Shown: in pieces, positions 3 through 57,252 of the stretch
Numbering within the stretch: the stretch's first letter is position 1
How the letters are laid out: the number at the start of each line of letters is the position of its first letter
Source of the DNA: an uncultured Alphaproteobacteria bacterium
GTDB lineage: Bacteria; Pseudomonadota; Alphaproteobacteria; RF32; CAG-239
Direction of reading: 5' to 3'
DNA length: 64,000 nucleotides
NCBI GenBank assembly: GCA_910587405.1
Contig: CAJUKS010000003.1
Location: forward strand, 125,268 to 189,267
Program-made: the position numbers and the translations under genes
The notes under the pieces: model-generated
Told to the model about the DNA's origin: nothing
The model's input: the letters and a program-made list of their open reading frames with translations, nothing else
The model's database searches: none

Positions 3-401
3 GAGCGTAAAAACGGCGAGTTGAGCAAAGAACGCCTGTGTGACATCTGGCAGGAAGAAATGGCTGCCAGCCTCGGCGAAGCGGTGGAAGTCGGTGCCGA
101 CAGTCGTTATATCTGGTCGCAGGTCGGACATTTCTTTTTCCTGCCGTTTTATGTATATGCCTATTCGTTTGCCGATTGCCTGGTCAATTCTTTGTATGAA
201 GTCAGTCAGGAAGGCAAAGTCAAAGATTTTCCGGCCAAATATATGAAAATGCTGTCCCAAACCGCCGTTACCGATTATAAACAGCTGTTGAAGCCGTTTG
301 GGCTGGATCCGACCGATTCCGATTTTTGGAACAAGGGGTTGAGCCTGATTTCGGGTTATATTGACGAGTTGGAACGTTTGGATAAAAAACTGAAACGTTA
401 A
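3..401 (+). CDS. Oligoendopeptidase F-like (M3 peptidase) C-terminal fragment; 5' end lies outside window
   Basis: Open frame runs from window edge; C-terminal motif HFFFLPFYVYAYSFADCLV typical of M3/PepF C-termini; followed by hairpin terminator. Confidence 0.45.
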   Translation, partial: ERKNGELSKERLCDIWQEEMAASLGEAVEVGADSRYIWSQVGHFFFLPFYVYAYSFADCLVNSLYEVSQEGKVKDFPAKYMKMLSQTAVTDYKQLLKPFGLDPTDSDFWNKGLSLISGYIDELERLDKKLKR

Positions 402-420
402 CGAATTGCGTCTGAAAAAA

Positions 421-453
421 ACGCCGTTATCGAAAGGAAAACGGCGTTTTTTG
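421..453 (+). terminator. Rho-independent terminator (acgccgtt...aacggcgt + T-run)
   Basis: 8-bp stem, short loop, TTTTTT immediately 3'. Confidence 0.5.
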
Positions 454-454
454 T

Positions 455-480
455 TATAAAAAATCCCGGCATGGCCGGGA
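455..480 (-). terminator. Hairpin atcccggc/gccgggat flanked by A/T runs; terminator for the minus-strand gene ending at 488 (possibly bidirectional)
   Basis: Perfect 8-bp stem; T-run on minus strand after stem. Confidence 0.4.
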
Positions 481-487
481 TTTTGGT

Positions 488-1267
488 TTATCTGAAGAAC
501 AATTCTTTGGTAATCCGTTTTGATGTGGACAGATAATGTTCCGAAGCGCTTGGGGCGCCGAGATACGAAAGGGAAAAACTGGTGATCAGAAAACTGAACG
601 GGTTTTTCAGAGCATCATCGTGAGAACGCCCTTTAAATTTGACAAAGCGCAGACGCATCACCGCCCGCCACAGATTGATATCGGGCGTCGGGGTGTCGGG
701 CAGATAGTCGATGGTGCGGAACTGGGTTTGCCACAAGCCCATGCCGAGCGGGCGGATCCAGTCGATTTCAACGTCACGCATCATGCTTTTGCGACGAAAC
801 TGCAACATATTGAATTTGGCGTCATAGCGGGTAAATTCATCAAAAATGAACGGTGAAGAATACCAGTAAACGTATGAGCCGGGTCCCCAGCGGCGAATCA
901 GTTCGTCATAATCGTTGGTGATCAGGTAACGCATCATAATATAGTTGGTGATATGTTCTTCGTTGATCAGGTTGCCGACCGGATAATTGACTTCCATCGG
1001 CTGTACGCGTTCGATCTGGCTGAAATAATGGTCGATGTAAAAAAGCTGCGGCGAGCTTGACCGTTGCGGCAGCATAATATAAAGCGCACTGGCAAGCATC
1101 ATGTTAAAGCAAATTGACATCGAAGCGACAATGACTAAAAAGCGCGACGTCCACAGATAACGTCGTTCCGGCATTGCATTGACGTGTACCTGTTCGGGAA
1201 AAAGGCCGAGTTTGTCGGGGCTTTCTTTTTCTCTGTATTTAAAAATAGTGTTAAAAATGCTGAACAT
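488..1267 (-). CDS. virB8: VirB8-like type IV secretion component (bitopic inner-membrane protein), orphan
   Basis: About 259 aa, single N-proximal TM helix (VIVASMSICFNMMLASALYIML), periplasmic domain with C-terminal NPFSFLITSF motif resembling the conserved NPLGFxVTSY of VirB8; no other T4SS genes adjacent. Confidence 0.45.
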   Translation of the reverse strand: MFSIFNTIFKYREKESPDKLGLFPEQVHVNAMPERRYLWTSRFLVIVASMSICFNMMLASALYIMLPQRSSSPQLFYIDHYFSQIERVQPMEVNYPVGNLINEEHITNYIMMRYLITNDYDELIRRWGPGSYVYWYSSPFIFDEFTRYDAKFNMLQFRRKSMMRDVEIDWIRPLGMGLWQTQFRTIDYLPDTPTPDINLWRAVMRLRFVKFKGRSHDDALKNPFSFLITSFSLSYLGAPSASEHYLSTSKRITKELFFR

Positions 1268-3525: not shown

Positions 3526-3805
3526 AAAACGATCCTTTTTTTGTGACAGGTAAAGATACAATTTCATTTGATTCATTTAAAAAAATAAATTGTGGATTTC
3601 TAATGAGTTATGATTGTTTTCTAAACAAGAAAAATATAAAATAAAGTTGTCACAAAAAAAGGATCGTTTTTTTGATACACTTTTTATTTGTGTCAATAAC
3701 GGCATAACTTATTGATAATTTTAGAATTATCTTGAAATTTATGGGCAATTGCTGTACTCTTTGCCTGTATCAAAAAAACGATCGTTTAAATTTAAAAGGA
3801 AAGGA
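3526..3805. promoter_or_regulatory. Conserved 5' regulatory cassette of autotransporter paralogue 1: A7-GGATCG-T7 palindrome (3648-3680), inverted copy of its left arm (3530-3548) and proximal half-site TGTATCAAAAAAACGATCG (3767-3785)
   Basis: Same TGTATC-A7-GxxTCx-T7-GATACA element found upstream of the other two autotransporter paralogues. Confidence 0.5.
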
Positions 3806-20189: not shown

Positions 20190-20276
20190 GAAGGCGGATT
20201 TTACGTGAGGTTGATGTTAAATAAGTGGAGATGACGTTTTGTGACGGAAATGCAAAACAATCTCAAAGGAGTTAAA

Positions 20277-21050
20277 ATGAAATTTGATATAATTATTCCG
20301 GTGGGAAGTTTTTGCGCCGGAGCGCAAGCATTAAGAAGCGTCAAGAAAAGAAGTCGTTCGCTGCCGTTAGACTGGGTGACACCGATCTCTCTGGAGTTGG
20401 CGGTCGATTTTCTGGAAACGGGTTTTAAATCTTTTTTTGAAAAGGAAGACCTGAAAAAATATGAAAAAGATACGAAGAAAAATATCGGTTATATCAATAC
20501 CCGTACCAATGTCATATTTATGCACGACTTTAAAGACATTTCACGTTTTGATGAGGAATATGTGCTGATACGCGAAAAGTACGATCGCCGCATTAAGCGG
20601 TTGTATCAGACCATCAACGATTCCAAAGATATTTTGTATTTACACGTTTTTCAGGCCAAAGATCAGCAGATATTGCCGACCGAAGAAGAAATCGTCGTTA
20701 CTTTTGAGCGGTTGCGGAAAATGAATCCGGGAAAAAATCACCGTTTGCTGTTCATTAATCTGGCGGAAACGGAGGAAGACAAAGGCGGTTTCGATCACCA
20801 AAAAATCCGTGAGGATATCGATTATTATAATTGCTACAGAGACAAAAACGCTCAGTTTGAGGACGGTGTGCCCAGCTACATATATTTTCAGAAAAATGTG
20901 GAGACGGTTTTGAAGCTGTACAAGGTTCGTAAAAGTGTCCGGGACGTCCTCAAAAAGTTTGGGTTTAAGCTGTTAGATGCTTTAAGCAGCGTGGTGCCGA
21001 GCCGGTCTGTCCGCGAAAAACTCAGGATGATGTACAAAGAGTATAAATAA
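20277..21050 (+). CDS. DUF1796-like putative papain-like cysteine peptidase, paralogue A
   Basis: MKFDIIIPVGSFC...LPLDW...FMHDF motif set (Cys and His candidates); RBS aaaggag. Confidence 0.5.
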   Translation: MKFDIIIPVGSFCAGAQALRSVKKRSRSLPLDWVTPISLELAVDFLETGFKSFFEKEDLKKYEKDTKKNIGYINTRTNVIFMHDFKDISRFDEEYVLIREKYDRRIKRLYQTINDSKDILYLHVFQAKDQQILPTEEEIVVTFERLRKMNPGKNHRLLFINLAETEEDKGGFDHQKIREDIDYYNCYRDKNAQFEDGVPSYIYFQKNVETVLKLYKVRKSVRDVLKKFGFKLLDALSSVVPSRSVREKLRMMYKEYK

Positions 21051-21098
21051 TTTTTTGCCGGTCGGTGATGCTGTCGGCGGCAGGTGTTGGATCTAAAT

Positions 21099-21794
21099 AT
21101 GCAAAAATTCGATTTGGTTGTTCCTGCGGGATCTTTCTGTGTGACCGGTTACCATTTGCGAAAAGCCGGTTTGCACGGCGAAACTTTGCCGTTTGACTGG
21201 TTGGAAAATGTGACGTTGGAACTGTTTGCCGGTTTTTTGGAAAACGGATTTGAGGACTTTTTGGTGCAAGATCGGCTGATGCCTGATTTCGAAGGAAAAA
21301 GCGGAAAAGGTCATTATCGTTTCCGGATGCCGAACGGAATAACTTTTGTTCACGATTTTGCTCACGATCGTCCGGCAGCGGATTTTGCGGCGGTGCAACG
21401 GAAATATGATCGCCGGATTAAACAGCTGTTTGACAGGATGGAAAAAGCCCGCAGCATCCTGTTCGTGCATTGCAGCCGCTTTGAAGCCGATCCGAACGAG
21501 CTCGGCCGCGTATGCGACCGTCTGCAAGCCTGCTGTCCCGACAAGTGCATAAAATTGTTGTACGTGCATCTGGTTAACGGCAAAAAAGGGTTTGATTATG
21601 TTGCTCAATCGCCGGAGGCGGATGTCGTTGAGATGGAATTTGGCACCAACAGCGATTCCAAGCAGTTTTGGATCGGCAAAGTTTCTGTCTTTAATCGGAT
21701 GTTGTCGAGCTACCGTCTTACTTTTGCGGCGCGTTGTTGTTTATGGCTGAATAAGCAAAAACGAAAGTTTGGTAAAAGTTACGACCGAATGTGA
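21099..21794 (+). CDS. DUF1796-like putative papain-like cysteine peptidase, paralogue B
   Basis: MQKFDLVVPAGSFC...LPFDW...FVHDF; colinear with paralogue A (~30% identity by eye). Confidence 0.5.
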   Translation: MQKFDLVVPAGSFCVTGYHLRKAGLHGETLPFDWLENVTLELFAGFLENGFEDFLVQDRLMPDFEGKSGKGHYRFRMPNGITFVHDFAHDRPAADFAAVQRKYDRRIKQLFDRMEKARSILFVHCSRFEADPNELGRVCDRLQACCPDKCIKLLYVHLVNGKKGFDYVAQSPEADVVEMEFGTNSDSKQFWIGKVSVFNRMLSSYRLTFAARCCLWLNKQKRKFGKSYDRM

Positions 21795-30740: not shown

Positions 30741-30756
30741 TATTTTTTAAAAAAGT

Positions 30757-30925
30757 GCATCAAAAAAAGGATCATTTTTTTGATACAGACAAATCGTACA
30801 ACAAAGGAGAATTAAATTCAAGAAGATTGTGAGATTATCAATAGGTTAGGAAAAAAACGAAAAAGCAGCAAAATGTATCAAAAAAATGATCGTTTAACGA
30901 TTGTAATTTAAAATTGAGGAATAAG
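30757..30925. promoter_or_regulatory. Conserved 5' cassette of autotransporter paralogue 2: palindrome ATCAAAAAAA-GGATCA-TTTTTTTGAT (30759-30784) plus proximal half-site TGTATCAAAAAAATGATCG (30874-30892)
   Basis: ~80 bp between the two elements is near-identical to locus 3. Confidence 0.55.
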
Positions 30926-35961: not shown

Positions 35962-36143
35962 AGTCGGGTCCTCAAAAAGAAGTGAAGCAAAATAATGACC
36001 GTTTTTTTTCTAACTAAAAGTTATAATCAAATATGTGCATTGTCAATTACTTAGTGGTTAGAAAAGATGCCGCAAAAAAACGGTGGTTAAATTTCATCAC
36101 TTTTTGCTGATTTAATATTTTTCGGACATTTTATGCGGTTGAG

Positions 36144-42338: not shown

Positions 42339-42518
42339 ATCTTCACCAACTAAGAAGAAAGAGTGCCGGGGAGAAACCGGTACTCTTTTTTCTTTTTAAA
42401 CCGCCGGCGGTTGCCCTTGTCAAAAAAGCGGTTTTCTGCTATGACGGAAGAAACGCCCGGTCTAAACGGGAAATGCCGTCAAGCGTACGGTAAACGGCGC
42501 GGGAAAAGGAGGGGAAAT

Positions 42519-43121
42519 ATGCTGGCAGAATTGATACGGCGGGCGCAGGATGAAAACGAAAGCGTTTGTGACGAAGTCTTTGAAGGCGAACTGCTGACGG
42601 ATGAAAATATGTCGCAGATCGAGTTTGAACGGGTGCGGTTTGTCAAATGCAGGTTTGAACACTGCAACTTTGATCATGCCGCTTTTTATCACGGCAAGTT
42701 TGTCAATTGTGATTTTTCAAATTGCAGCTTTGTCGGTAGTTATTGGAAAAAAATGGAGATCGCGGGCAGCAAGGGCAACGGCGCCCGTTTGAGTGAAGCT
42801 GTTTTTAAAGAGTGCCGAATTGAGGAAAGCTTGTTTGATTATGCCGACTTTTCCCAGTCGTCGTGGGAAGCCTGTGCGGTCGGCAACAGCAAATTCCGCG
42901 AGAGTTTTTGGACGGAAGTTAAGCTGAAGAAAGTCAATTTTCAGGCAGTGGATTTCTGCCGCAGCGATTTTTTCAAAACCCGGCTGGCCGGGATTGATTT
43001 TTCGGGATGTATCATTGACGGAATTCAGATTTCGACCGGATTCGCTGAGTTGCGGGGAATTAAAATCGGGCTTGAACAGGCGGTCAGTCTGGCCGGGCTG
43101 CTTGGAGCCGAGGTGGTTTGA
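42519..43121 (+). CDS. Pentapeptide-repeat protein (Qnr/MfpA-like size, ~200 aa)
   Basis: Strong RBS aaaaggagggg; tandem A(D/N)LxF-type pentapeptides throughout. Confidence 0.75.
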   Translation: MLAELIRRAQDENESVCDEVFEGELLTDENMSQIEFERVRFVKCRFEHCNFDHAAFYHGKFVNCDFSNCSFVGSYWKKMEIAGSKGNGARLSEAVFKECRIEESLFDYADFSQSSWEACAVGNSKFRESFWTEVKLKKVNFQAVDFCRSDFFKTRLAGIDFSGCIIDGIQISTGFAELRGIKIGLEQAVSLAGLLGAEVV

Positions 43122-43737: not shown

Positions 43738-44106
43738 ATGAAACTGATGAGTAAACTGACGTCTTTGATGTCGGACACCGGCAATAAATGGTTTCGGCGC
43801 GGGCGCGAGCCCCTGATCAGTGCCAAGGCCGCCAAAAAAATTCAGCAATCGGCGAGCGAACGCGGTTCTCGGTGTGCGGATGATACTTCAACCCCTCCCT
43901 ATCTGACGATTATTCCTCAGCTGAATGATAAGAATGAACAGATTTTTAAAGCGGCGGTTCTGAATTTGTATAAAATTGCGGTAGAGATGAAGGAATATCG
44001 TTCTGACATTTTGCAAGCCTTGTCTCATCAGGCGGAATCCCGGCGGGCAGAGACGGAGAGCGGCCGCTGGCTGCATGAAAAAATCGAACGTTTGCGCCAA
44101 TTGTGA
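43738..44106 (+). CDS. Hypothetical small basic protein (122 aa)
   Basis: ORF with terminator hairpin downstream. Confidence 0.4.
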   Translation: MKLMSKLTSLMSDTGNKWFRRGREPLISAKAAKKIQQSASERGSRCADDTSTPPYLTIIPQLNDKNEQIFKAAVLNLYKIAVEMKEYRSDILQALSHQAESRRAETESGRWLHEKIERLRQL

Positions 44107-44127
44107 TCATCTTTTTTTAATCTGTAA

Positions 44128-44153
44128 ATCTCCGGCTTCGGCCGGATTTTTTT
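44128..44153 (+). terminator. Rho-independent terminator tccggc-ttcg-gccgga + T-run
   Basis: GC hairpin followed by TTTTTTT. Confidence 0.5.
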
Positions 44154-44392
44154 ATTTGACATGCCGTAAAAAATTTGAGGCACAGACAAAAAAACGGCTA
44201 TGAGACATTGCTCTTAACAGTTTGAATTTAATCGGTTTTATCTTCTTAGGATTTGCGGCAAAAAAACGTACATTTAAATGACAGGAAAAATTTCTTCGCT
44301 GAACCTTGATTTTTGGTCTTGATTTCTGCAGCAAAATAACGTACAATATTTTCAATCACCTGAAACAATCAAGGTAATAAAGGGGAAGGGTT

Positions 44393-46420
44393 ATGAAAAT
44401 ATCGGGTAAAATTTGGGCGGTGTGCATGCTGCTGGTGTGCGGCTGCCTTTGGAGTGCCGGCAACGTATCGGCCAAGGTCTGTTTCGTCGGCGATTCCGAT
44501 TGTGCCGGCGGTGCCGACTTCGGGGACGGATATACCGACGACAGTGAGGATCTTTGTAAAGACGTCAAGGATGCCAACGGTAAATTGATGTATCAAAAAG
44601 CGCCGTGTCCGGCCAAGAGCCATGTTTCGGCAGTTTGTCCTTATAATGCCGCTTATGTGCAGTGTTGCGGCGATTCGTATGCTTATTCGACCTGCCCGTA
44701 TCCTTTGGAGAGCGTGGGACGCTGCGGCAACAGTTATAAATGCGCCTGTCCCAAAGAGAAGTTTCCTTATGCTTCCTGTCTCTCACCGACGATTCCCGGA
44801 GGCATCAATTGTCTGCAAATTGACGATGACAGCAAGACAACCAGTATTCATTATGAAAAATGCGTCTGTGATCCCGGTCTTTATCCCTATAAACAAAACA
44901 GCGACTGCGACGATAATCAGATTGTCGATCCCAAACGTACCTGTACCGATACCGACGGCGGCACTTTCTACTATCGCTGCAAATGTCCGGACAGCTGGAG
45001 TACCTGCGCCAGTATGGACGGGCAGGGGGCAATCGGCGCCAGGAAATGTTACAGCGACGGCAACACTTACCACAGTCAGTGTTGCGAATGCCCTTCGCCG
45101 TTTGAACGTTCGATGAACGATCCCTATGCAACCGATTACGAATATTGTCCCTGCAACAATAATTTCCGCAAGGCTTCGGGATGTAAGTTCGGTTACAAGG
45201 TTGATAACGGCCGTTGTATTGAAATGACCTGCGGTGATGCCCTGAAAGCTTTATTTGACAGCAGCAGCGCTTACGCGTCATATGGTTTGTACACCGGGAA
45301 CGCTCTGAGCCAGAAGACTCTGATTGTCGGTGATGACGTGTCTTCGGCCAGCTGGTCTCATTTTGCGGGTAAAACCGTGATGTCCGGTGCCGCCTTTGTC
45401 AGAAAGCTGAACGGCAGCAACAATTATATTAAGAATGTTCAGGAAAAATGTACCAACAGCATTCCGACGATTCAGTTTACATACAGTAGTTCCAATATTA
45501 CCGGAACTCAAAACTTTACTTCGGTCATTTTGAAGTATACTTCAAGCTTGTGGAACAAAGGGTCGTTTACCTGTACCAACTGCGGTATCGAATTCTGGAA
45601 GCTGTACAATACGGATAGCGGCGCCACGGTTAATCTGGCCTACAATTCAAATATGCCGAATGTCGACAATATGTATGTTAATGCAACCGGTATTGAAATT
45701 TCCAAGCCCTATCGTTCGGTCGGTTATAATTATCAGGTCGGCAGTTTGGGGACCAAAATTACCAACTACGGCGGCAACGGCGCGCATGTGATTATGTTTG
45801 AAGGCAAAAGCAACTCCAACCGTATGGCCTTTAACGGCGACTATCTGACGGTTAACGGTTTGGCGGCAATGAAATATGCCAACGTTCGGGTCGGACAGAC
45901 CTGTATCGGTACCAACTGTTCGTACGGAAGTTCTTCCGGAGTTTATTTCAATCCGGGTGACGTATGCAATACCAGCAGCACGTTGTCTTTATACTATACC
46001 AACTACTATCTGTACGAAGCCGGAACGGTAAGGACGGTTCATATGTCGACTTCCACCATGTTGGGTAAAGAAAACGACGGTACGGTATCGATTGTTTTCA
46101 GTGATGCCAGCTACAATACCCTGACTTTCTCCCAGTTGTGGAAATATTGCAGCAAACGCCCGGGCTGTGCGTATCGTTACATTACTTCCTACGGTTCGGT
46201 CAGCAGTCGTACGATGGATTGCGGGTATTATTCGCAGTCGGTTCGTGACGGCGAAAAGCACTCCAAACCCGACGATGCCCGTTGCAAGATCGACGGTAAC
46301 AATAACCAGTATGGTTTTGCTCAGGCAAGTTCGGCCGGATGTAACTGGCGCGACGGTGACGGCTCTGACCGTACGCCTTATTTCCAGCTGAACGGTCAGC
46401 GCGGATGGTCGCGAAACTGA
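44393..46420 (+). CDS. Secreted cysteine-rich protein (675 aa): signal peptide, ~260-aa N-terminal domain with ~34 Cys, then Asn/Ser/Thr/Tyr/Gly-rich beta-type C-terminal domain
   Basis: RBS aaaggggaaggg; Cys patterns CxCP, CCxC, CKCP repeated; no known bacterial family recognised. Confidence 0.7.
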   Translation: MKISGKIWAVCMLLVCGCLWSAGNVSAKVCFVGDSDCAGGADFGDGYTDDSEDLCKDVKDANGKLMYQKAPCPAKSHVSAVCPYNAAYVQCCGDSYAYSTCPYPLESVGRCGNSYKCACPKEKFPYASCLSPTIPGGINCLQIDDDSKTTSIHYEKCVCDPGLYPYKQNSDCDDNQIVDPKRTCTDTDGGTFYYRCKCPDSWSTCASMDGQGAIGARKCYSDGNTYHSQCCECPSPFERSMNDPYATDYEYCPCNNNFRKASGCKFGYKVDNGRCIEMTCGDALKALFDSSSAYASYGLYTGNALSQKTLIVGDDVSSASWSHFAGKTVMSGAAFVRKLNGSNNYIKNVQEKCTNSIPTIQFTYSSSNITGTQNFTSVILKYTSSLWNKGSFTCTNCGIEFWKLYNTDSGATVNLAYNSNMPNVDNMYVNATGIEISKPYRSVGYNYQVGSLGTKITNYGGNGAHVIMFEGKSNSNRMAFNGDYLTVNGLAAMKYANVRVGQTCIGTNCSYGSSSGVYFNPGDVCNTSSTLSLYYTNYYLYEAGTVRTVHMSTSTMLGKENDGTVSIVFSDASYNTLTFSQLWKYCSKRPGCAYRYITSYGSVSSRTMDCGYYSQSVRDGEKHSKPDDARCKIDGNNNQYGFAQASSAGCNWRDGDGSDRTPYFQLNGQRGWSRN

Positions 46421-46426
46421 TAATCT

Positions 46427-46528
46427 CCCCCGCCCGGGTCTGTTGATGAGACAGATGACACAATCCCCTTTAAGGGCGGGGCCCTTGATACGGGAAGGGA
46501 AGAAAAACGAATTGATGTTTTTCTTCCC
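46427..46528. other. Structured non-coding segment: long-range stem ccccgccc/gggcgggg and perfect 11-bp hairpin gggaagaaaaa-N10-tttttcttccc
   Basis: Lies in a 390-bp non-coding gap between two accessory genes; no T-run so not a canonical terminator. Confidence 0.25.
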
Positions 46529-46809
46529 GCACTCCCGAACCTGAAACAAGCTTAAGGGGAAACGGTCTACCGGACCTTAAACGGAAACCTTTTATACCAA
46601 ATTATTATCTACAACTATTTCCGTTTTATTATTCAAGGAGAGAATACAGACCCGCGTTTCCCGGACAATCCAGAAACGGCTCCCTGTGGTTCCTTATCAT
46701 AACGGTCGGTTGTACGATCCTGTTTCGACATCCCCGTCTCAAGCTCAGGCTTCCGACGATCAAATATTTCCGAAAACAGATTTAAACAACAATTAAAACC
46801 ATTTGTATT

Positions 46810-48057
46810 ATGAAAACTAACAAATTCTGGTTCGCAACGGCAGCAGCTGCCCTTGTAACCGTTATCTGCGTGTTCACCTCCTGCAGCAAGGAAGACGAGC
46901 CTTTCCTGCCAGAAGTGATCGAAAGTGAAGTTCTTGAAACCGGCATCAGCAATGACGTCAACGAGGTTTCCGGAACCGAAGGTACCAAACTGAGCTACGA
47001 ATCCTGGATTGTGGTCAAGGGACAAACCCGCGCCGCTTTCGAGAACAAAGTCTCCGTTACTCTCTGCAATCAGTTGAACAATCTTGAGACGGAAATTGAC
47101 GTTAAAGAGTTCAATTTCGGTCAGGTCAGGACCAGTATTACCTATGGTGTCGGCGACGGCAGCCGAACGGACGGATTTGTTCAAATTGCGGATTCTGTCA
47201 TGTTTTATAACGTGGAATATGACAATTTCTCATTTGCATTTGAACTTCCCTTCGAAGTGGCTGTTTACAACGACAAAGTGACCCGGCAGACGATGCCTTA
47301 TCATCGTTACGGAAACATTGTCGACAAGGGCAGCAGCGTTAAAGATCTGGAGATCGAAGTCGAAGATATCGGCAAATGGCAGAACGTCCGTGTGCGTAAA
47401 CTCTACCAACATGACATCTCGGTGGACTTTAACGGCAAAAGCTACGACCTCACGGCAAAGATTATCTTGAAAAAGACTTTGCAGACCAACGGTGAAAATA
47501 CGGTGTTGAAATGTGAACTGATTGATTCCGGAACAGAAGTTTTGCTCAACGAAGAGAGCAGCACCATGTACAAATCATGGATTAAGGTAAAACAGACGAT
47601 GCTCAACGGCAGTACGCGCGAACAAACCTATACGGTTGACGACATGTACGGATCTTTGGATCACGAACTGTTGGACTTTAAGAAGCTTCAGGACAAAAAC
47701 ATTATGCAACAAAACGCTTCGGTTATCGATGTTGACGACGTCGTCATCTCGGCCGGCGATGTTGTTTATGTGCATAAAGTCGAGCGCAGTTATGTTGTCG
47801 ATTACAACTATTTTTCGTTAAACTTCAAACTGCTGCACAACGAAGCCTACTATGATGACGGCATTACGACAATCAAATTCCCGTCCTTTAAGCACGAGAA
47901 TTTTGCGGACGAAGGCAAGTTAACCTTTGTCGGTGACTTTGTCGACGGTGGTTTTGAGTTTTCCGAATATTGGTTTGCTCATACGATTACGGCTGATTTC
48001 GGTTCGGTGAAACATACCGGATTACGTGATTTTCAGGTGATTACGCCCAAGCAATAA
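46810..48057 (+). CDS. Lipoprotein of unknown function (415 aa), atypical codon usage
   Basis: Signal peptide plus lipobox VFTSC; TTC/ACC/TCC/AAG/GAG-biased codons unlike core genes. Confidence 0.6.
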   Translation: MKTNKFWFATAAAALVTVICVFTSCSKEDEPFLPEVIESEVLETGISNDVNEVSGTEGTKLSYESWIVVKGQTRAAFENKVSVTLCNQLNNLETEIDVKEFNFGQVRTSITYGVGDGSRTDGFVQIADSVMFYNVEYDNFSFAFELPFEVAVYNDKVTRQTMPYHRYGNIVDKGSSVKDLEIEVEDIGKWQNVRVRKLYQHDISVDFNGKSYDLTAKIILKKTLQTNGENTVLKCELIDSGTEVLLNEESSTMYKSWIKVKQTMLNGSTREQTYTVDDMYGSLDHELLDFKKLQDKNIMQQNASVIDVDDVVISAGDVVYVHKVERSYVVDYNYFSLNFKLLHNEAYYDDGITTIKFPSFKHENFADEGKLTFVGDFVDGGFEFSEYWFAHTITADFGSVKHTGLRDFQVITPKQ

Positions 48058-48078
48058 GCGTGATTGCCCGAATGGTAA

Positions 48079-48116
48079 AAAGACGCCGCACCCGGCAGGG
48101 TACGGCGTCTTTTTTA
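48079..48116 (+). terminator. Rho-independent terminator aagacgccg/cggcgtctt + T6
   Basis: 9-bp stem, large loop, T-run. Confidence 0.6.
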
Positions 48117-48134
48117 TGAAAAAGGTGGTTGGCA

Positions 48135-48163
48135 AATAAAAAAACCGCTCCGAAGAGCGGTTT
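48135..48163 (-). terminator. Rho-independent terminator aaaccgctc-cgaa-gagcggttt for minus-strand PPIase gene
   Basis: Perfect stem; T-run on minus strand. Confidence 0.55.
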
Positions 48164-48181
48164 TTGCCGAAAGTCTGAGAC

Positions 48182-49012
48182 TTATTGAGCTGCCGGCGTT
48201 TTCGGCATCGGTTTGCCGTCCAGCTGGTATTGCTCGATTTTGGCGTTGTCAAGAATATTTTTCAACACGCTCTGAGCCGTTTTCTGAGCCAGAGCCTGTC
48301 TCAGTTGCGGTTCGGCTTCCTGATACGAAATCGGTTTGGAATCGCGAACGTCGTCAACAATGATGACATGATAACCGAAGTTGGTTTTGATCGGTTTCTG
48401 CGAATACTGGCCTTTTTTCATTCTGAAAGCGGCGTCGGCGAATTCCGGCACCATCATTTGTTTGGTGAAATAACCCAGGTTGGGGTTCTTTTCTTCGGAA
48501 TAGGTTTTTGCCAGTTGGTCAAAATTTTCGCCTTTTTTGATTTTGGCGATGATATCGTTGGCGGTTGCTTCGTCGCCGACCAAAATATGACGGGCGCTCA
48601 TTTCTTTTTGCGGCTTAAATTCTTTTTTGTACTGGTTGTACAAGTTCTTAACGTCGTTATCCGTAATTTTGCCTTCAACCTGCTGCTGAATGTAAACGTT
48701 GCTCATAACCTGTTTTTTGACGGCATCCAGCTGTTTTTTATATTCGGGGGTTGATTCGATGTTGGCTTTTTTGGCGGCCTGCAGGATCGCTGTTTCGGTT
48801 GCTTTGGCTTCTACCATACGGGGATAGAACTGATCAAAGGAAATTTGCGATTTGAGCTGCGGAAGCGCGTTGTAGGAATCCTTCAGTTCGGCAACCGTAA
48901 TTTTTTCGCCGTTGACAACCGCGGCAACGCCGTTTTTGCCTTCGGCACCGGCCGGCAGCGGATTTAAAAGCATGGCCGACAGAACGGCGGCAGCAATATA
49001 TTGAGTTTTCAT
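48182..49012 (-). CDS. Parvulin-type peptidyl-prolyl cis-trans isomerase (PrsA/PpiC/SurA-like), secreted
   Basis: Signal peptide; parvulin core ARHILV...FGYHVI. Confidence 0.75.
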   Translation of the reverse strand: MKTQYIAAAVLSAMLLNPLPAGAEGKNGVAAVVNGEKITVAELKDSYNALPQLKSQISFDQFYPRMVEAKATETAILQAAKKANIESTPEYKKQLDAVKKQVMSNVYIQQQVEGKITDNDVKNLYNQYKKEFKPQKEMSARHILVGDEATANDIIAKIKKGENFDQLAKTYSEEKNPNLGYFTKQMMVPEFADAAFRMKKGQYSQKPIKTNFGYHVIIVDDVRDSKPISYQEAEPQLRQALAQKTAQSVLKNILDNAKIEQYQLDGKPMPKTPAAQ

Positions 49013-57081: not shown

Positions 57082-57252
57082 CTGTATCAAAAAAAGGTTC
57101 GTTTTTTTGATACAGGCAAATCGTACAACAAAGAAGAATTAAATTCAAGAAGATTGTGAGATTATCAATAGGTTAGGAAAAGTCTTTCTGCATAATAAAT
57201 TGTATCAAAAAAACGAACGTTTAACGATTATAATTTAAAATTGAGGAATAAT
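57082..57252. promoter_or_regulatory. Conserved 5' cassette of autotransporter paralogue 3: 14-bp-arm palindrome CTGTATCAAAAAAA-GGTTCG-TTTTTTTGATACAG (57082-57115) plus proximal half-site TGTATCAAAAAAACGAACG (57201-57219); TATAAT at 57229-57234
   Basis: Near-identical to locus 2 cassette except GATC core replaced by GTTC/GAAC. Confidence 0.55.

What the first reader, a model, noticed from the sequence alone, without database searches (positions are those of the whole stretch)
44393..46420. Secreted 675-aa protein with an extremely cysteine-dense N-terminal domain and an Asn/Ser/Thr/Tyr-rich C-terminal domain
After a signal peptide the first ~260 residues contain roughly 34 cysteines in recurring patterns (CxCP, CCxC, CKCPDSW, CECPSP, YCPCNNN). 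The C-terminal ~400 residues are Cys-poor, rich in N/S/T/Y/G, and have predicted beta-strand periodicity. This architecture is unusual for bacteria; it resembles eukaryotic extracellular disulfide-rich modules, or toxin and adhesin receptor-binding domains. It does not match any bacterial family I recognise. It is a candidate host-interaction factor (adhesin, toxin or effector) and possibly novel.
Basis: seen in the sequence. Interest (0 to 1): 0.6.

Follow-up and report, generated by a model that had tools for sequence, protein, structure and literature searches.

The report
Phase-variable cysteine-rich beta-helix surface protein cassette
The cysteine-rich secreted protein is real; it belongs to an undescribed multi-copy family in uncultured gut Alphaproteobacteria that is paired with a lipoprotein whose predicted fold matches no solved structure and is switched ON and OFF by a tiny 69-bp invertible promoter, the pattern expected of a variable cell-surface adhesin or antigen.

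Summary

It belongs to a small family (132 representatives among 1.84 billion proteins). All named members come from uncultured gut or rumen Alphaproteobacteria, with 3-6 copies per genome.

- A 415-aa lipoprotein gene (46810-48057) follows the gene in 12 of 13 loci with enough downstream sequence. Its model is confident but has no PDB match.
- A 69-bp segment (44272-44340) upstream, flanked by palindromic sites centred on GTAC, is inverted between independent assemblies of the same locus (67/69 identity when reverse-complemented).

One orientation places a -35 hexamer 17 bp from a fixed -10 TACAAT. The window copy is ON; 24 of 28 loci are OFF.

Best reading: a phase-variable surface adhesin/antigen cassette. 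The inversion is shown. The ON/OFF promoter reading, surface location, the complex with the lipoprotein and the recombinase are inferred or unknown.

The parts
44257..44282 (.). Left recombination site: an imperfect palindrome (about 12-2-12) centred on the TA of GTAC 44268-44271
   Evidence: The inversion breakpoints map to the GTAC cores. In other lineages the equivalent site is a perfect or near-perfect 28-30-bp palindrome (L016 GTTGAATTTAAACGTACGTTTAAATTCAAC; L045 GTTACATTTAAACGTACATTTAAATGTAAC).
44272..44340 (.). 69-bp invertible segment carrying the -35 element; in the promoter-ON orientation in this window
   Evidence: 67/69 identical to orthologous L001 when reverse-complemented, against 34/69 in the same orientation. 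The segment is 68-70 bp in all 28 switch-bearing loci.
44330..44355 (.). Right recombination site centred on GTAC 44341-44344; its outer half is fixed and contains the -10 hexamer
   Evidence: GTACAATATTTTCAATCACCT is invariant among close paralogues and was used to retrieve 12 metagenome loci.
44319..44347 (+). Sigma-70-like promoter assembled only in the ON orientation: TTGATT (44319-44324), 17 bp, TACAAT (44342-44347)
   Evidence: Promoter scan. In every one of 28 loci exactly one orientation puts TTGNNT 17 bp from TACAAT.
44393..44473 (+). Signal peptide (residues 1-27), with signal-peptidase-I cleavage VSA|KVCF
   Evidence: Comparative evidence: the AxA|[KR]VCF site is conserved while the leader varies; L028 has no Cys in the leader.
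44474..45247 (+). Cys-rich domain (residues 28-285), 29 Cys; the conserved half of the protein, with about five modules of 25-45 residues carrying C-x(9-13)-C-x(10-16)-C-x-C
   Evidence: Modules 129-171 and 172-204 are homologous (hhalign probability 89.5%, E 2e-6). Mean pairwise identity is 41% against 28% for the C-terminal half. Model pLDDT is low for 28-117 and 57-92 for 120-285.
45248..46072 (+). Right-handed parallel beta-helix domain (about residues 286-560); the variable half
46073..46420 (+). C-terminal tail (residues 561-675) with 5 Cys (C650 invariant), poorly modelled, plus the stop codon
46421..46550 (+). Conserved structured element directly after the stop codon (two GC-rich hairpins)
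   Evidence: RNAalifold: 32 pairs, 6 of them kept through changes on both sides. 74-95% DNA identity among paralogues, and contigs L001, L002 and L010 end here.
46594..46619 (+). Near-invariant block ATACCAAATTATTATCTACAACTATT in the spacer (one R position); function unknown (possible partner-gene promoter or operator)
   Evidence: Conserved across 7 loci apart from one A/G position, including the switch-less subfamily member L018.
46810..48057 (+). Partner gene: 415-aa lipoprotein (lipobox VFTS|C25, acidic stretch SKEDE after the Cys), two homologous all-beta lobes
48140..48165 (.). Hairpin flanked by an A-run and a T-run, reported as a terminator for the minus-strand PPIase gene; probably bidirectional and also the end of the cassette
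   Evidence: Terminator scan; the bidirectional reading is inferred from the symmetric sequence.

Best explanation
This is one copy of a lineage-specific, multi-copy, phase-variable surface-protein cassette of uncultured gut Alphaproteobacteria (the 'Azospirillum sp.' / Candidatus Scatocola group).

Shown:
- A 69-bp DNA segment between two palindromic recombination sites inverts.

Inferred from the sequence:
- In one orientation the segment supplies the -35 hexamer to a fixed -10 (ON, as in this window). In the other orientation no promoter is formed (OFF, as in most other assemblies).

Inferred function:
- A site-specific recombinase encoded elsewhere in the genome flips each copy independently, so a cell expresses only one or a few of its 3-6 paralogues.
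- When ON, the 675-aa protein is exported by Sec and cleaved by signal peptidase I.
- Its conserved Cys-rich N-terminal half is locked by roughly 12 disulfides into a rigid stalk or docking module.
- Its variable C-terminal beta-helix is the exposed ligand-binding and antigenic part, as in beta-helical adhesins.
- The lipoprotein encoded downstream, with a conserved N-lobe and a variable C-lobe, holds or presents the protein at the outer membrane.

Phase variation plus wholesale replacement of the variable domains would let the bacterium change binding specificity and escape antibody or phage.
For: Inversion:
- Orthologous loci differ by an exact reverse complement between the GTAC cores (67/69 against 34/69).
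- A second paralogue is also seen in both states: ON in L022 and L040, OFF in L032, L038, L041 and L042.
- In 28 of 28 loci from human, mouse and other samples the segment is 68-70 bp, and exactly one orientation puts TTGNNT 17 bp from TACAAT; 4 are ON and 24 OFF.
- Half-site sequences differ between lineages but stay palindromic and matched at both ends, as expected for a co-evolving dimeric recombinase.
- Contigs break exactly at the cores (L004, L009, L011, L019, L040), as expected for mixed populations.

Export: the AxA|[KR]VCF site is conserved.

Multigene family restricted to one lineage.

Partner linkage: present in 12 of 13 loci with enough downstream sequence.

Surface-antigen-like evolution:
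- N-parts are conserved and C-parts variable in both proteins (41/28% and 49/26%).
- At orthologous loci L007 and L044 the Cys-rich protein is 92-100% identical for about 300 residues and then drops to 14-24%. The partners are 98% and 82% identical over their first two 50-column blocks and then drop to 20-42%.
- There is residual co-variation between the two variable parts (partial r 0.36, Mantel p 0.007).
Against: - No recombinase gene was found in the window or in the 462 kb of fetched loci.
- Orientation states come from consensus assemblies, not from reads within one sample.
- Promoter activity is a consensus match only (9 of 12 positions).
- Nothing shows that the protein crosses the outer membrane. 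It has no autotransporter barrel, TPS domain, lipobox or recognisable sorting signal, so it could remain periplasmic.
- The complex with the lipoprotein is inferred from synteny and weak co-variation. The 389-nt spacer has a conserved block that might be a separate promoter.
- Residues 28-117 and 561-675 are poorly modelled.
- The beta-helix fold is shared by enzymes as well as adhesins.
Confidence: 0.6

Rival explanations
1. Phase-variable secreted or periplasmic carbohydrate-active enzyme. The beta-helix is a polysaccharide lyase, hydrolase or esterase acting on host mucin, dietary glycans or the cell's own envelope. The Cys-rich domain is a stabilising or carbohydrate-binding module, and the lipoprotein is a substrate-binding helper.
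Against: Sequence identity to all these enzymes is 5-13%, and no Pfam enzyme family is detected even at E<=10. The C-terminal domain is so variable (28% mean identity, replaced wholesale) that a conserved active site is unlikely. Only 4 positions after residue 285 are invariant: Y297, C353, G506 and C650.
Confidence: 0.15
2. Polymorphic toxin and immunity pair. A conserved N-terminal delivery domain carries variable C-terminal toxins, and the downstream gene protects the producer.
For: The conserved-N / variable-C architecture followed by a co-varying downstream gene is formally like CDI, Rhs or MafB loci.
Against: No toxin, Rhs, TPS or other delivery domain is detected. The variable part is a roughly 275-residue structural beta-helix plus tail, not a compact C-terminal toxin. 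The partner is a 415-aa exported lipoprotein whose own N-lobe is highly conserved, unlike small immunity proteins. Expression is by a promoter inversion switch, which is typical of surface structures.
Confidence: 0.07
3. The apparent inversion is not biological. It would be an assembly artefact at a palindromic low-complexity region, or fixed alternative alleles that no longer switch.
For: No reads were examined, and each assembly shows only one state. No recombinase was found.
Against: The segment (69 bp plus sites) is shorter than a sequencing read, so assemblers report what the reads contain. The two states are exact reverse complements with collinear flanks. Both states recur at two different paralogues in independent projects. 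The geometry is conserved across diverged lineages with co-varying palindromic sites. Contigs end exactly at the crossover cores.
Confidence: 0.04
4. The cassette encodes a phage receptor or envelope component with a non-adhesive primary role (for example nutrient capture or envelope architecture), and phase variation exists mainly to evade phages.
For: Phase-variable surface molecules of gut bacteria are often linked to phage escape (abstract of PMC8375218, listed). Variable beta-helix domains and OFF-biased populations fit this.
Against: There is no direct evidence. It overlaps with the best explanation in mechanism (a surface-exposed, phase-variable protein) and differs only in the selective agent and primary role.
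Confidence: 0.1

Closest known systems
Invertible promoters of Bacteroides fragilis controlled by the global serine invertase Mpi (capsular polysaccharide loci and other surface loci)
   Same: Many dispersed loci in one genome share the same short inverted-repeat sites. Inverting a small promoter-bearing segment turns surface-molecule genes ON or OFF. The recombinase is not necessarily adjacent (PMC4747536 states that Mpi inverts 13 regions). The GTAC/ACGT-containing core resembles, from my memory, the Mpi IR consensus ARACGTWCGT; I could not verify this in the library.
   Different: A different phylum (Alphaproteobacteria). The promoter is sigma-70 type rather than the Bacteroides -33/-7 type. 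The segment is only 69 bp. The promoter is split: the -35 lies inside the invertible DNA and the -10 lies in the fixed half of the right site. The cargo is a protein pair rather than polysaccharide operons. The recombinase is unidentified.
Hin/hix, Gin/gix and Cin/cix DNA invertase systems, and fimS/FimB-FimE of E. coli
   Same: Site-specific inversion as an ON/OFF switch for a surface structure. The sites here are roughly 26-30-bp imperfect palindromes with two half-sites around a central dinucleotide, like hix sites (established knowledge).
   Different: The Hin segment is about 1 kb and carries the recombinase and an enhancer, and fimS is 314 bp (established knowledge). Here the crossover centres are 73 bp apart, there is no room for a gene or a classical enhancer, and the system has many copies.
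Beta-helical adhesins: autotransporter passengers (pertactin, Hap, Hbp, Vag8), TPS exoproteins (HMW1, HxuA, EtpA), the Lactobacillus reuteri SRRP binding region, tapirins
   Different: No autotransporter barrel, no TPS domain and no LPXTG. It has a unique N-terminal Cys-rich domain and a lipoprotein partner instead of a TpsB or barrel. Sequence identity is 7-12%.
Cys-rich variant surface protein families of eukaryotic parasites (Giardia VSPs, ciliate immobilisation antigens)
   Same: An analogy only: a multigene family of Cys-dense extracellular proteins with only one or a few members expressed at a time.
   Different: No homology (no hit to any Pfam model, which should include the Giardia VSP family). 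CxC rather than CXXC motifs. Here the Cys-rich part is the conserved half and the Cys-poor beta-helix is the variable half. Switching is by DNA inversion.
Bilobed surface lipoproteins of Neisseria (TbpB, fHbp, HpuA) and surface lipoproteins of Bacteroidota with an acidic export signal after the lipidated Cys
   Same: The partner is a lipoprotein with two homologous all-beta lobes and an acidic stretch right after the lipobox Cys (CSKEDE, CEKDDY, CSSDDD).

Membership tests
Invertible promoter (inverton) | A DNA segment flanked by inverted repeats is found in both orientations at the same locus | tested here: met
   Window against L001: 67/69 inverted, 34/69 direct. A second paralogue is ON in L022 and L040 and OFF in L032, L038, L041 and L042.
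Invertible promoter (inverton) | A promoter is oriented toward the downstream gene in only one state | tested here: met
   TTGATT-17-TACAAT exists only in the window orientation. The same logic holds in 28 of 28 loci. This is a consensus match only; transcription was not measured.
Invertible promoter (inverton) | A cognate site-specific recombinase | tested here: not met
   No Resolvase or Phage_integrase domain in any of the 42 complete window ORFs of at least 70 aa that were scanned. No Hin/Gin-like hit in 462 kb. The whole genome was not available, so absence is not shown.
Serine DNA invertase system (Hin/Gin/Mpi type) | Recombination sites of about 26 bp made of two inverted half-sites around a central 2-bp crossover | tested here: inconclusive
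   The sites are palindromes centred on the TA of GTAC, which is compatible. Tyrosine recombinase sites can also be palindromic, so the crossover chemistry is unknown.
Type Va autotransporter | A C-terminal 12-stranded beta-barrel (Pfam PF03797) | tested here: not met
   No Pfam hit at E<=10. The three genuine autotransporters in the same window score 1e-28 to 4e-29.
Two-partner secretion exoprotein (TpsA) | An N-terminal TPS domain and an adjacent TpsB (POTRA plus barrel) gene | tested here: not met
   No Pfam hit for either protein. The neighbour is a lipoprotein with no Pfam domain.
Pectate-lyase-like right-handed beta-helix fold | A three-dimensional fold match | tested here: met
Pectate lyase / pectinesterase / glycoside hydrolase 28 enzymes | Conserved catalytic residues and a family HMM match | tested here: not met
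   No HMM match. Only Y297, C353, G506 and C650 are invariant after residue 285.
Eukaryote-like disulfide-rich modules (EGF, TNFR, granulin, furin-like, Giardia VSP) | A match to the family's Cys-spacing profile | tested here: not met
   Pfam-A scan at E<=10 returned nothing. The repeat here is C-x(9-13)-C-x(10-16)-C-x-C.
Bacterial lipoprotein (for the 675-aa protein) | A conserved lipobox with an invariant Cys at the cleavage site | tested here: not met
   The leader Cys residues are not conserved in distant members (L013, L023, L028), while AxA|[KR]VCF is.
Bacterial lipoprotein (for the 415-aa partner) | A lipobox [LVI][ASTVI][GAS]C after a short hydrophobic leader | tested here: met
   VFTS|C25, with C25 invariant in 45 sequences. 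The same holds in 10 of 11 extracted partners; the L005 copy is N-terminally divergent. Lipidation itself cannot be tested here.
Polymorphic toxin system | A recognisable toxin domain at the C-terminus and a small cognate immunity gene | tested here: not met
   No toxin or immunity families in Pfam, NCBIfam or PADLOC.

The most novel reading that the evidence does not exclude
The cassettes are a previously unrecognised surface-display and antigenic-variation system of diderm bacteria. In this reading a lipoprotein of novel fold carries or tethers a non-lipidated, disulfide-locked beta-helix protein to the cell surface by a route that is none of the known ones (not an autotransporter, TPS, Slam or T9SS route). 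Expression of the 3-6 paralogues is made mutually exclusive by a minimal 73-bp (centre-to-centre) inversion switch with a split promoter, run by a still unidentified global recombinase that may also control the autotransporter genes through a second class of sites.
Probability: 0.15. Interest if true: 0.8.

Novelty: new variant of a known kind. Interest (0 to 1): 0.62.

Why it matters
Gut Alphaproteobacteria of this group are uncultured and almost unstudied. This gives them a concrete and testable surface-variation system.

- A protein family and a lipoprotein fold with no described relatives appear to be the variable face of the cell.
- The switch is one of the shortest promoter inversions I know of. 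It has a fixed 69-bp length (about seven helical turns between crossover points) and a promoter split across the recombination site, which makes it a compact model for how very short DNA segments can be inverted.
- If the second class of sites upstream of the three autotransporter genes also inverts, the organism has a genome-wide invertible surface programme comparable to that of Bacteroides, but in a different phylum.
- The sites and the invariant flank give ready-made probes for measuring ON/OFF states directly in metagenomes.

Tried and rejected
- Family scans of the 675-aa protein found nothing usable. Pfam gave 0 hits at E<=10. NCBIfam gave only 'MiiA motif' at E 0.1, 12 bits against a cut-off of 24, rejected as noise. 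PHROGs and PADLOC gave nothing. A PDB sequence profile gave nothing.
- A second profile search of the 5.8-billion database returned the same 18 proteins.
- There is no paralogue and no detectable self-repeat by BLAST within the window. Profile comparison was needed to see the B/C module homology.
- I considered a lipobox reading of the leader (L-[AV]-C-G-C18) and rejected it by comparison with distant members.
- Recombinase search: Pfam on 42 of the 43 non-overlapping ORF calls of at least 70 aa (the truncated ORF at the left edge was not scanned) found none. The ORF shared upstream of L003, L007 and L026 is an ABC permease, not a recombinase.
- The Mpi IR consensus could not be verified. The string is absent from the paper library and the 2003 paper is not held.
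- Rfam: no family reaches its gathering score in 44000-48200.
- The AFDB50 fold library was unavailable.
- The truncated ORF at the window's left edge is not a partner gene.
- No fetched locus covers the autotransporter switch candidates, so their inversion could not be tested.
- Literature searches found nothing on this family or on invertons in this lineage and no usable figure for minimum inverton length.
Full report
**Observation**

The ORF at 44393..46420 (+) is intact and encodes 675 aa. It is preceded by a strong ribosome-binding site. The mature N-terminal part (residues 28-285) holds 29 cysteines (11.2%). All the quoted motifs are present.

An alignment with relatives shows about 24 Cys of the N-domain invariant or nearly so, so the pattern is under selection. 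Comparing 28 copies settles the export signal. The hydrophobic leader varies and can lack Cys altogether (L028), whereas an AxA|[KR]VCF signal-peptidase-I site is always kept. The protein is therefore Sec-exported and cleaved, and it is not a lipoprotein.

**Family and host**

No curated family matches: Pfam at E<=10, NCBIfam, PHROGs, PADLOC and PDB sequences. A word-indexed search of 5.8 billion proteins finds 18 clusters, all unnamed. An exhaustive HMMER search of 1.84 billion representatives finds 132 at E<=1e-3.

Every relative that carries a name or sits in a named genome is from uncultured gut or rumen Alphaproteobacteria. The labels are 'Azospirillum sp.', 'Alphaproteobacteria bacterium' and Candidatus Scatocola, which NCBI places in Rhodospirillales. 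Single MAGs hold 3-6 copies. The window itself is ordinary chromosomal context: ValRS, LexA, LysRS, ClpB, SecA, Ffh, TrmD, glycogen genes and three autotransporters.

**Anatomy of the protein**

The Cys-rich half consists of short beta-hairpin modules with a recurring C-x(9-13)-C-x(10-16)-C-x-C pattern. Modules 129-171 and 172-204 are demonstrably homologous (hhalign 89.5%, E 2e-6). The others share only the Y-x-C-x-C-x(3,4)-[YF]-P motif. The N-half is the conserved half (41% mean pairwise identity) and the beta-helix is the variable half (28%).

**A conserved partner**

The next gene (46810..48057) encodes a 415-aa protein with a canonical lipobox (VFTS|C25, with C25 invariant in 45 homologues) followed by an acidic stretch. 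It follows the Cys-rich gene in the window and in L005, L007, L008, L009, L012, L018, L020, L029/30, L044, L045 and L047. That is every locus with enough downstream sequence except the distant L023. The upstream genes of L044, L045 and L047 were confirmed as family members at E 1e-115 to 1e-202.

**The inversion switch**

Comparing the cassette DNA with the fetched loci showed that 44260-44360 matches the other loci in reverse, while 44337 onward matches directly. The alignment and a direct test show why. The 69 bp between two GTAC cores (44272-44340) are the exact reverse complement of the same segment in the orthologous locus L001: 67/69 identical when inverted, against 34/69 direct. The flanks are collinear.

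L002 and L022 share the window's orientation. L003, L006, L007, L008, L010 and L029/30 share L001's orientation. A metagenome scan with the invariant right flank returned 12 more loci, of which 11 are in the L001-type orientation. The twelfth (L040) is in the window-type orientation and its contig starts inside the segment. A second paralogue (802-805 aa) is thus also seen in both states.

In the window orientation a sigma-70-like promoter is formed: TTGATT, 17 bp, TACAAT. The -35 lies inside the invertible DNA and the -10 overlaps the fixed half of the right site. Across 28 switch-bearing loci from diverged lineages the segment is always 68-70 bp, and exactly one orientation puts a TTGNNT hexamer 17 bp from TACAAT. 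Four are ON and 24 OFF.

Each recombination site is itself a palindrome centred on GTAC. The half-site sequence differs between lineages (TGCAAAAAAAGG.., GTTGAATTTAAA.., GTTACATTTAAA..) but stays matched at both ends, which points to a co-evolving dimeric recombinase. Several contigs end exactly at the cores, as expected when a population is mixed.

No recombinase gene is present in the window or in the 462 kb of fetched loci. I infer that it is encoded elsewhere and acts globally.

**Signs of diversifying exchange**

The 5' module (5' UTR plus the first 45 codons) is 87-95% identical in DNA between paralogues that are otherwise about 37% identical as proteins.

L007 and L044 are orthologous loci, since both lie downstream of the same ABC-transporter genes. 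Their Cys-rich proteins are 92-100% identical over the first ~300 alignment columns and then fall abruptly to 14-24%. The partners are 98% and 82% identical over their first two 50-column blocks and then fall to 20-42%. After regressing out N-terminal divergence, the variable parts of the two proteins still co-vary weakly (partial r 0.36, Mantel p 0.007, 11 loci). That is suggestive, not decisive.

Cassette content also differs between genomes. L047 has a cassette between the M3-peptidase and VirB8 genes, where the window has only an 86-bp gap.

**Interpretation**

Shown:
- an exported, Cys-rich, beta-helix protein
- a lineage-restricted multi-copy family
- a tightly linked lipoprotein gene
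- a DNA inversion directly upstream of the gene

Inferred from the sequence:
- that the inversion assembles or dismantles the promoter (a consensus match; transcription was not measured)

Inferred function:
- disulfide locking of the N-domain
- surface exposure
- docking to the lipoprotein, with the conserved N-parts as the likely interface
- an adhesin or antigen function of the variable helix
- a global recombinase

The combination is the signature of bacterial surface variation systems: a promoter inversion, an OFF-biased population, conserved anchor parts, and variable exposed parts that are replaced wholesale. I put 0.6 on this reading as a whole and about 0.9 on the inversion itself.

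The main rival is a phase-variable glycan-active enzyme (0.15). It is weakened by the lack of any conserved residues in the helix. A toxin/immunity pair (0.07) and an assembly artefact (0.04) are unlikely for the reasons given in the rival entries.

**Comparison and novelty**

The regulatory logic is that of known invertons: Bacteroides Mpi-controlled promoters, hin and fimS. The differences are the phylum, the fixed and very short 69-bp segment (by comparison, PMC11602134 reports that over 75% of PhaseFinder invertons are shorter than 300 bases), the split promoter and the cargo.

The protein shares a fold, but no defining secretion feature, with autotransporter and TPS adhesins, so it is not a member of those families. 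The Cys-rich domain and the lipoprotein have no described relatives. I rate it a new variant of a known kind: a phase-variable surface-protein system built from undescribed parts.

Noticed in passing
window 3527-3548, 3648-3689, 3758-3787; 30756-30787 and 30874-30895; 57082-57115 and 57201-57222: A second class of candidate inversion switches lies upstream of all three autotransporter genes (starts near 3732, 30914 and 57241/57253). They have 22-nt inverted repeats, 95% complementary and 86 nt apart. The sites are palindromes TGTATCAAAAAAA-GG[AT]TC[AG]-TTTTTTTGATACA, with a GATC or GTTC core instead of GTAC. A degenerate site motif has 11 matches in the window against 1.1 expected. No other assembly was available to show the opposite orientation.
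   Followed up: partly
window 401-488, compared with L047 3618-7245: A related genome carries a complete Cys-rich plus lipoprotein cassette, with switch, between the M3-peptidase and VirB8 genes. In the window that junction is an empty 86-bp gap, so cassettes are gained or lost between strains.
   Followed up: partly
L017, L018, L020, L025 (about 200 nt upstream of the family gene): One subfamily (leaders MKTRNSW.. and MKTPNLG..) lacks the inversion switch. Instead it has a fixed promoter-like TTGCAT-17-TAAACT and a conserved GC-rich structured leader (GTTATCAGGGGGTTATCTGATAACGAGCACCGCGAAAGGGGCGG..). This may be a constitutively or differently regulated member.
   Followed up: no
window 46421-46550 and 46594-46619: The 389-nt spacer between the two genes is conserved among paralogues. 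Two GC-rich hairpins sit right after the stop codon, with 6 of 32 pairs kept through double changes. The fold z-score for the whole spacer is -2.6. There is also a near-invariant 26-nt block, ATACCAAATTATTATCTACAACTATT with one A/G position. Contigs L001, L002 and L010 end inside this spacer. Function unknown: attenuator, processing site or second promoter.
   Followed up: partly
window 44337-44526 and the equivalent in L003, L006, L007, L008, L010, L029: The 5' UTR plus the first 45 codons are 87-95% identical in DNA between paralogues whose proteins are otherwise about 37% identical. This suggests gene conversion or a nucleotide-level constraint (for example a recombination accessory site), and it explains frequent assembly breaks.
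   Followed up: no
window 46790-46900; L031 2664-3926: The lipoprotein gene has no Shine-Dalgarno sequence. Its product has an acidic run after the lipidated Cys (CSKEDE; CEKDDY, CSSDDD in paralogues), which from memory resembles the Bacteroidota surface-lipoprotein export signal. A 48%-identical homologue stands alone, with no Cys-rich gene upstream, in a contig binned as Dysgonamonadaceae. Possible horizontal transfer or misbinning.
   Followed up: partly
L005 10435-12936; L029 8001-10600: Some loci carry two tandem, diverged copies of the lipoprotein gene downstream of a single Cys-rich gene.
   Followed up: no
window 35972-36008 and 36074-36110: A 37-nt inverted repeat (76% complementary, 65 nt apart) with A-run/CGGT cores lies between the divergent glycosyltransferase gene and clpB. 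It is weaker than the other sites and may be chance or a regulatory palindrome.
   Followed up: no
window 48077-48161 (-): A sub-threshold Rfam match to Burkholderia sRNA ncS025 (36.8 bits against a gathering score of 46, E 5e-4) overlaps the hairpin that ends the PPIase gene. It is probably just the terminator.
   Followed up: no
window 20241-21794 and 42363-43121: Two tandem DUF1796 papain-like peptidase genes, and a pentapeptide-repeat protein with weak similarity to Qnr/MfpA and to the Hailong effector HalA, far below the cut-offs. They are unrelated to the cassette.
   Followed up: no
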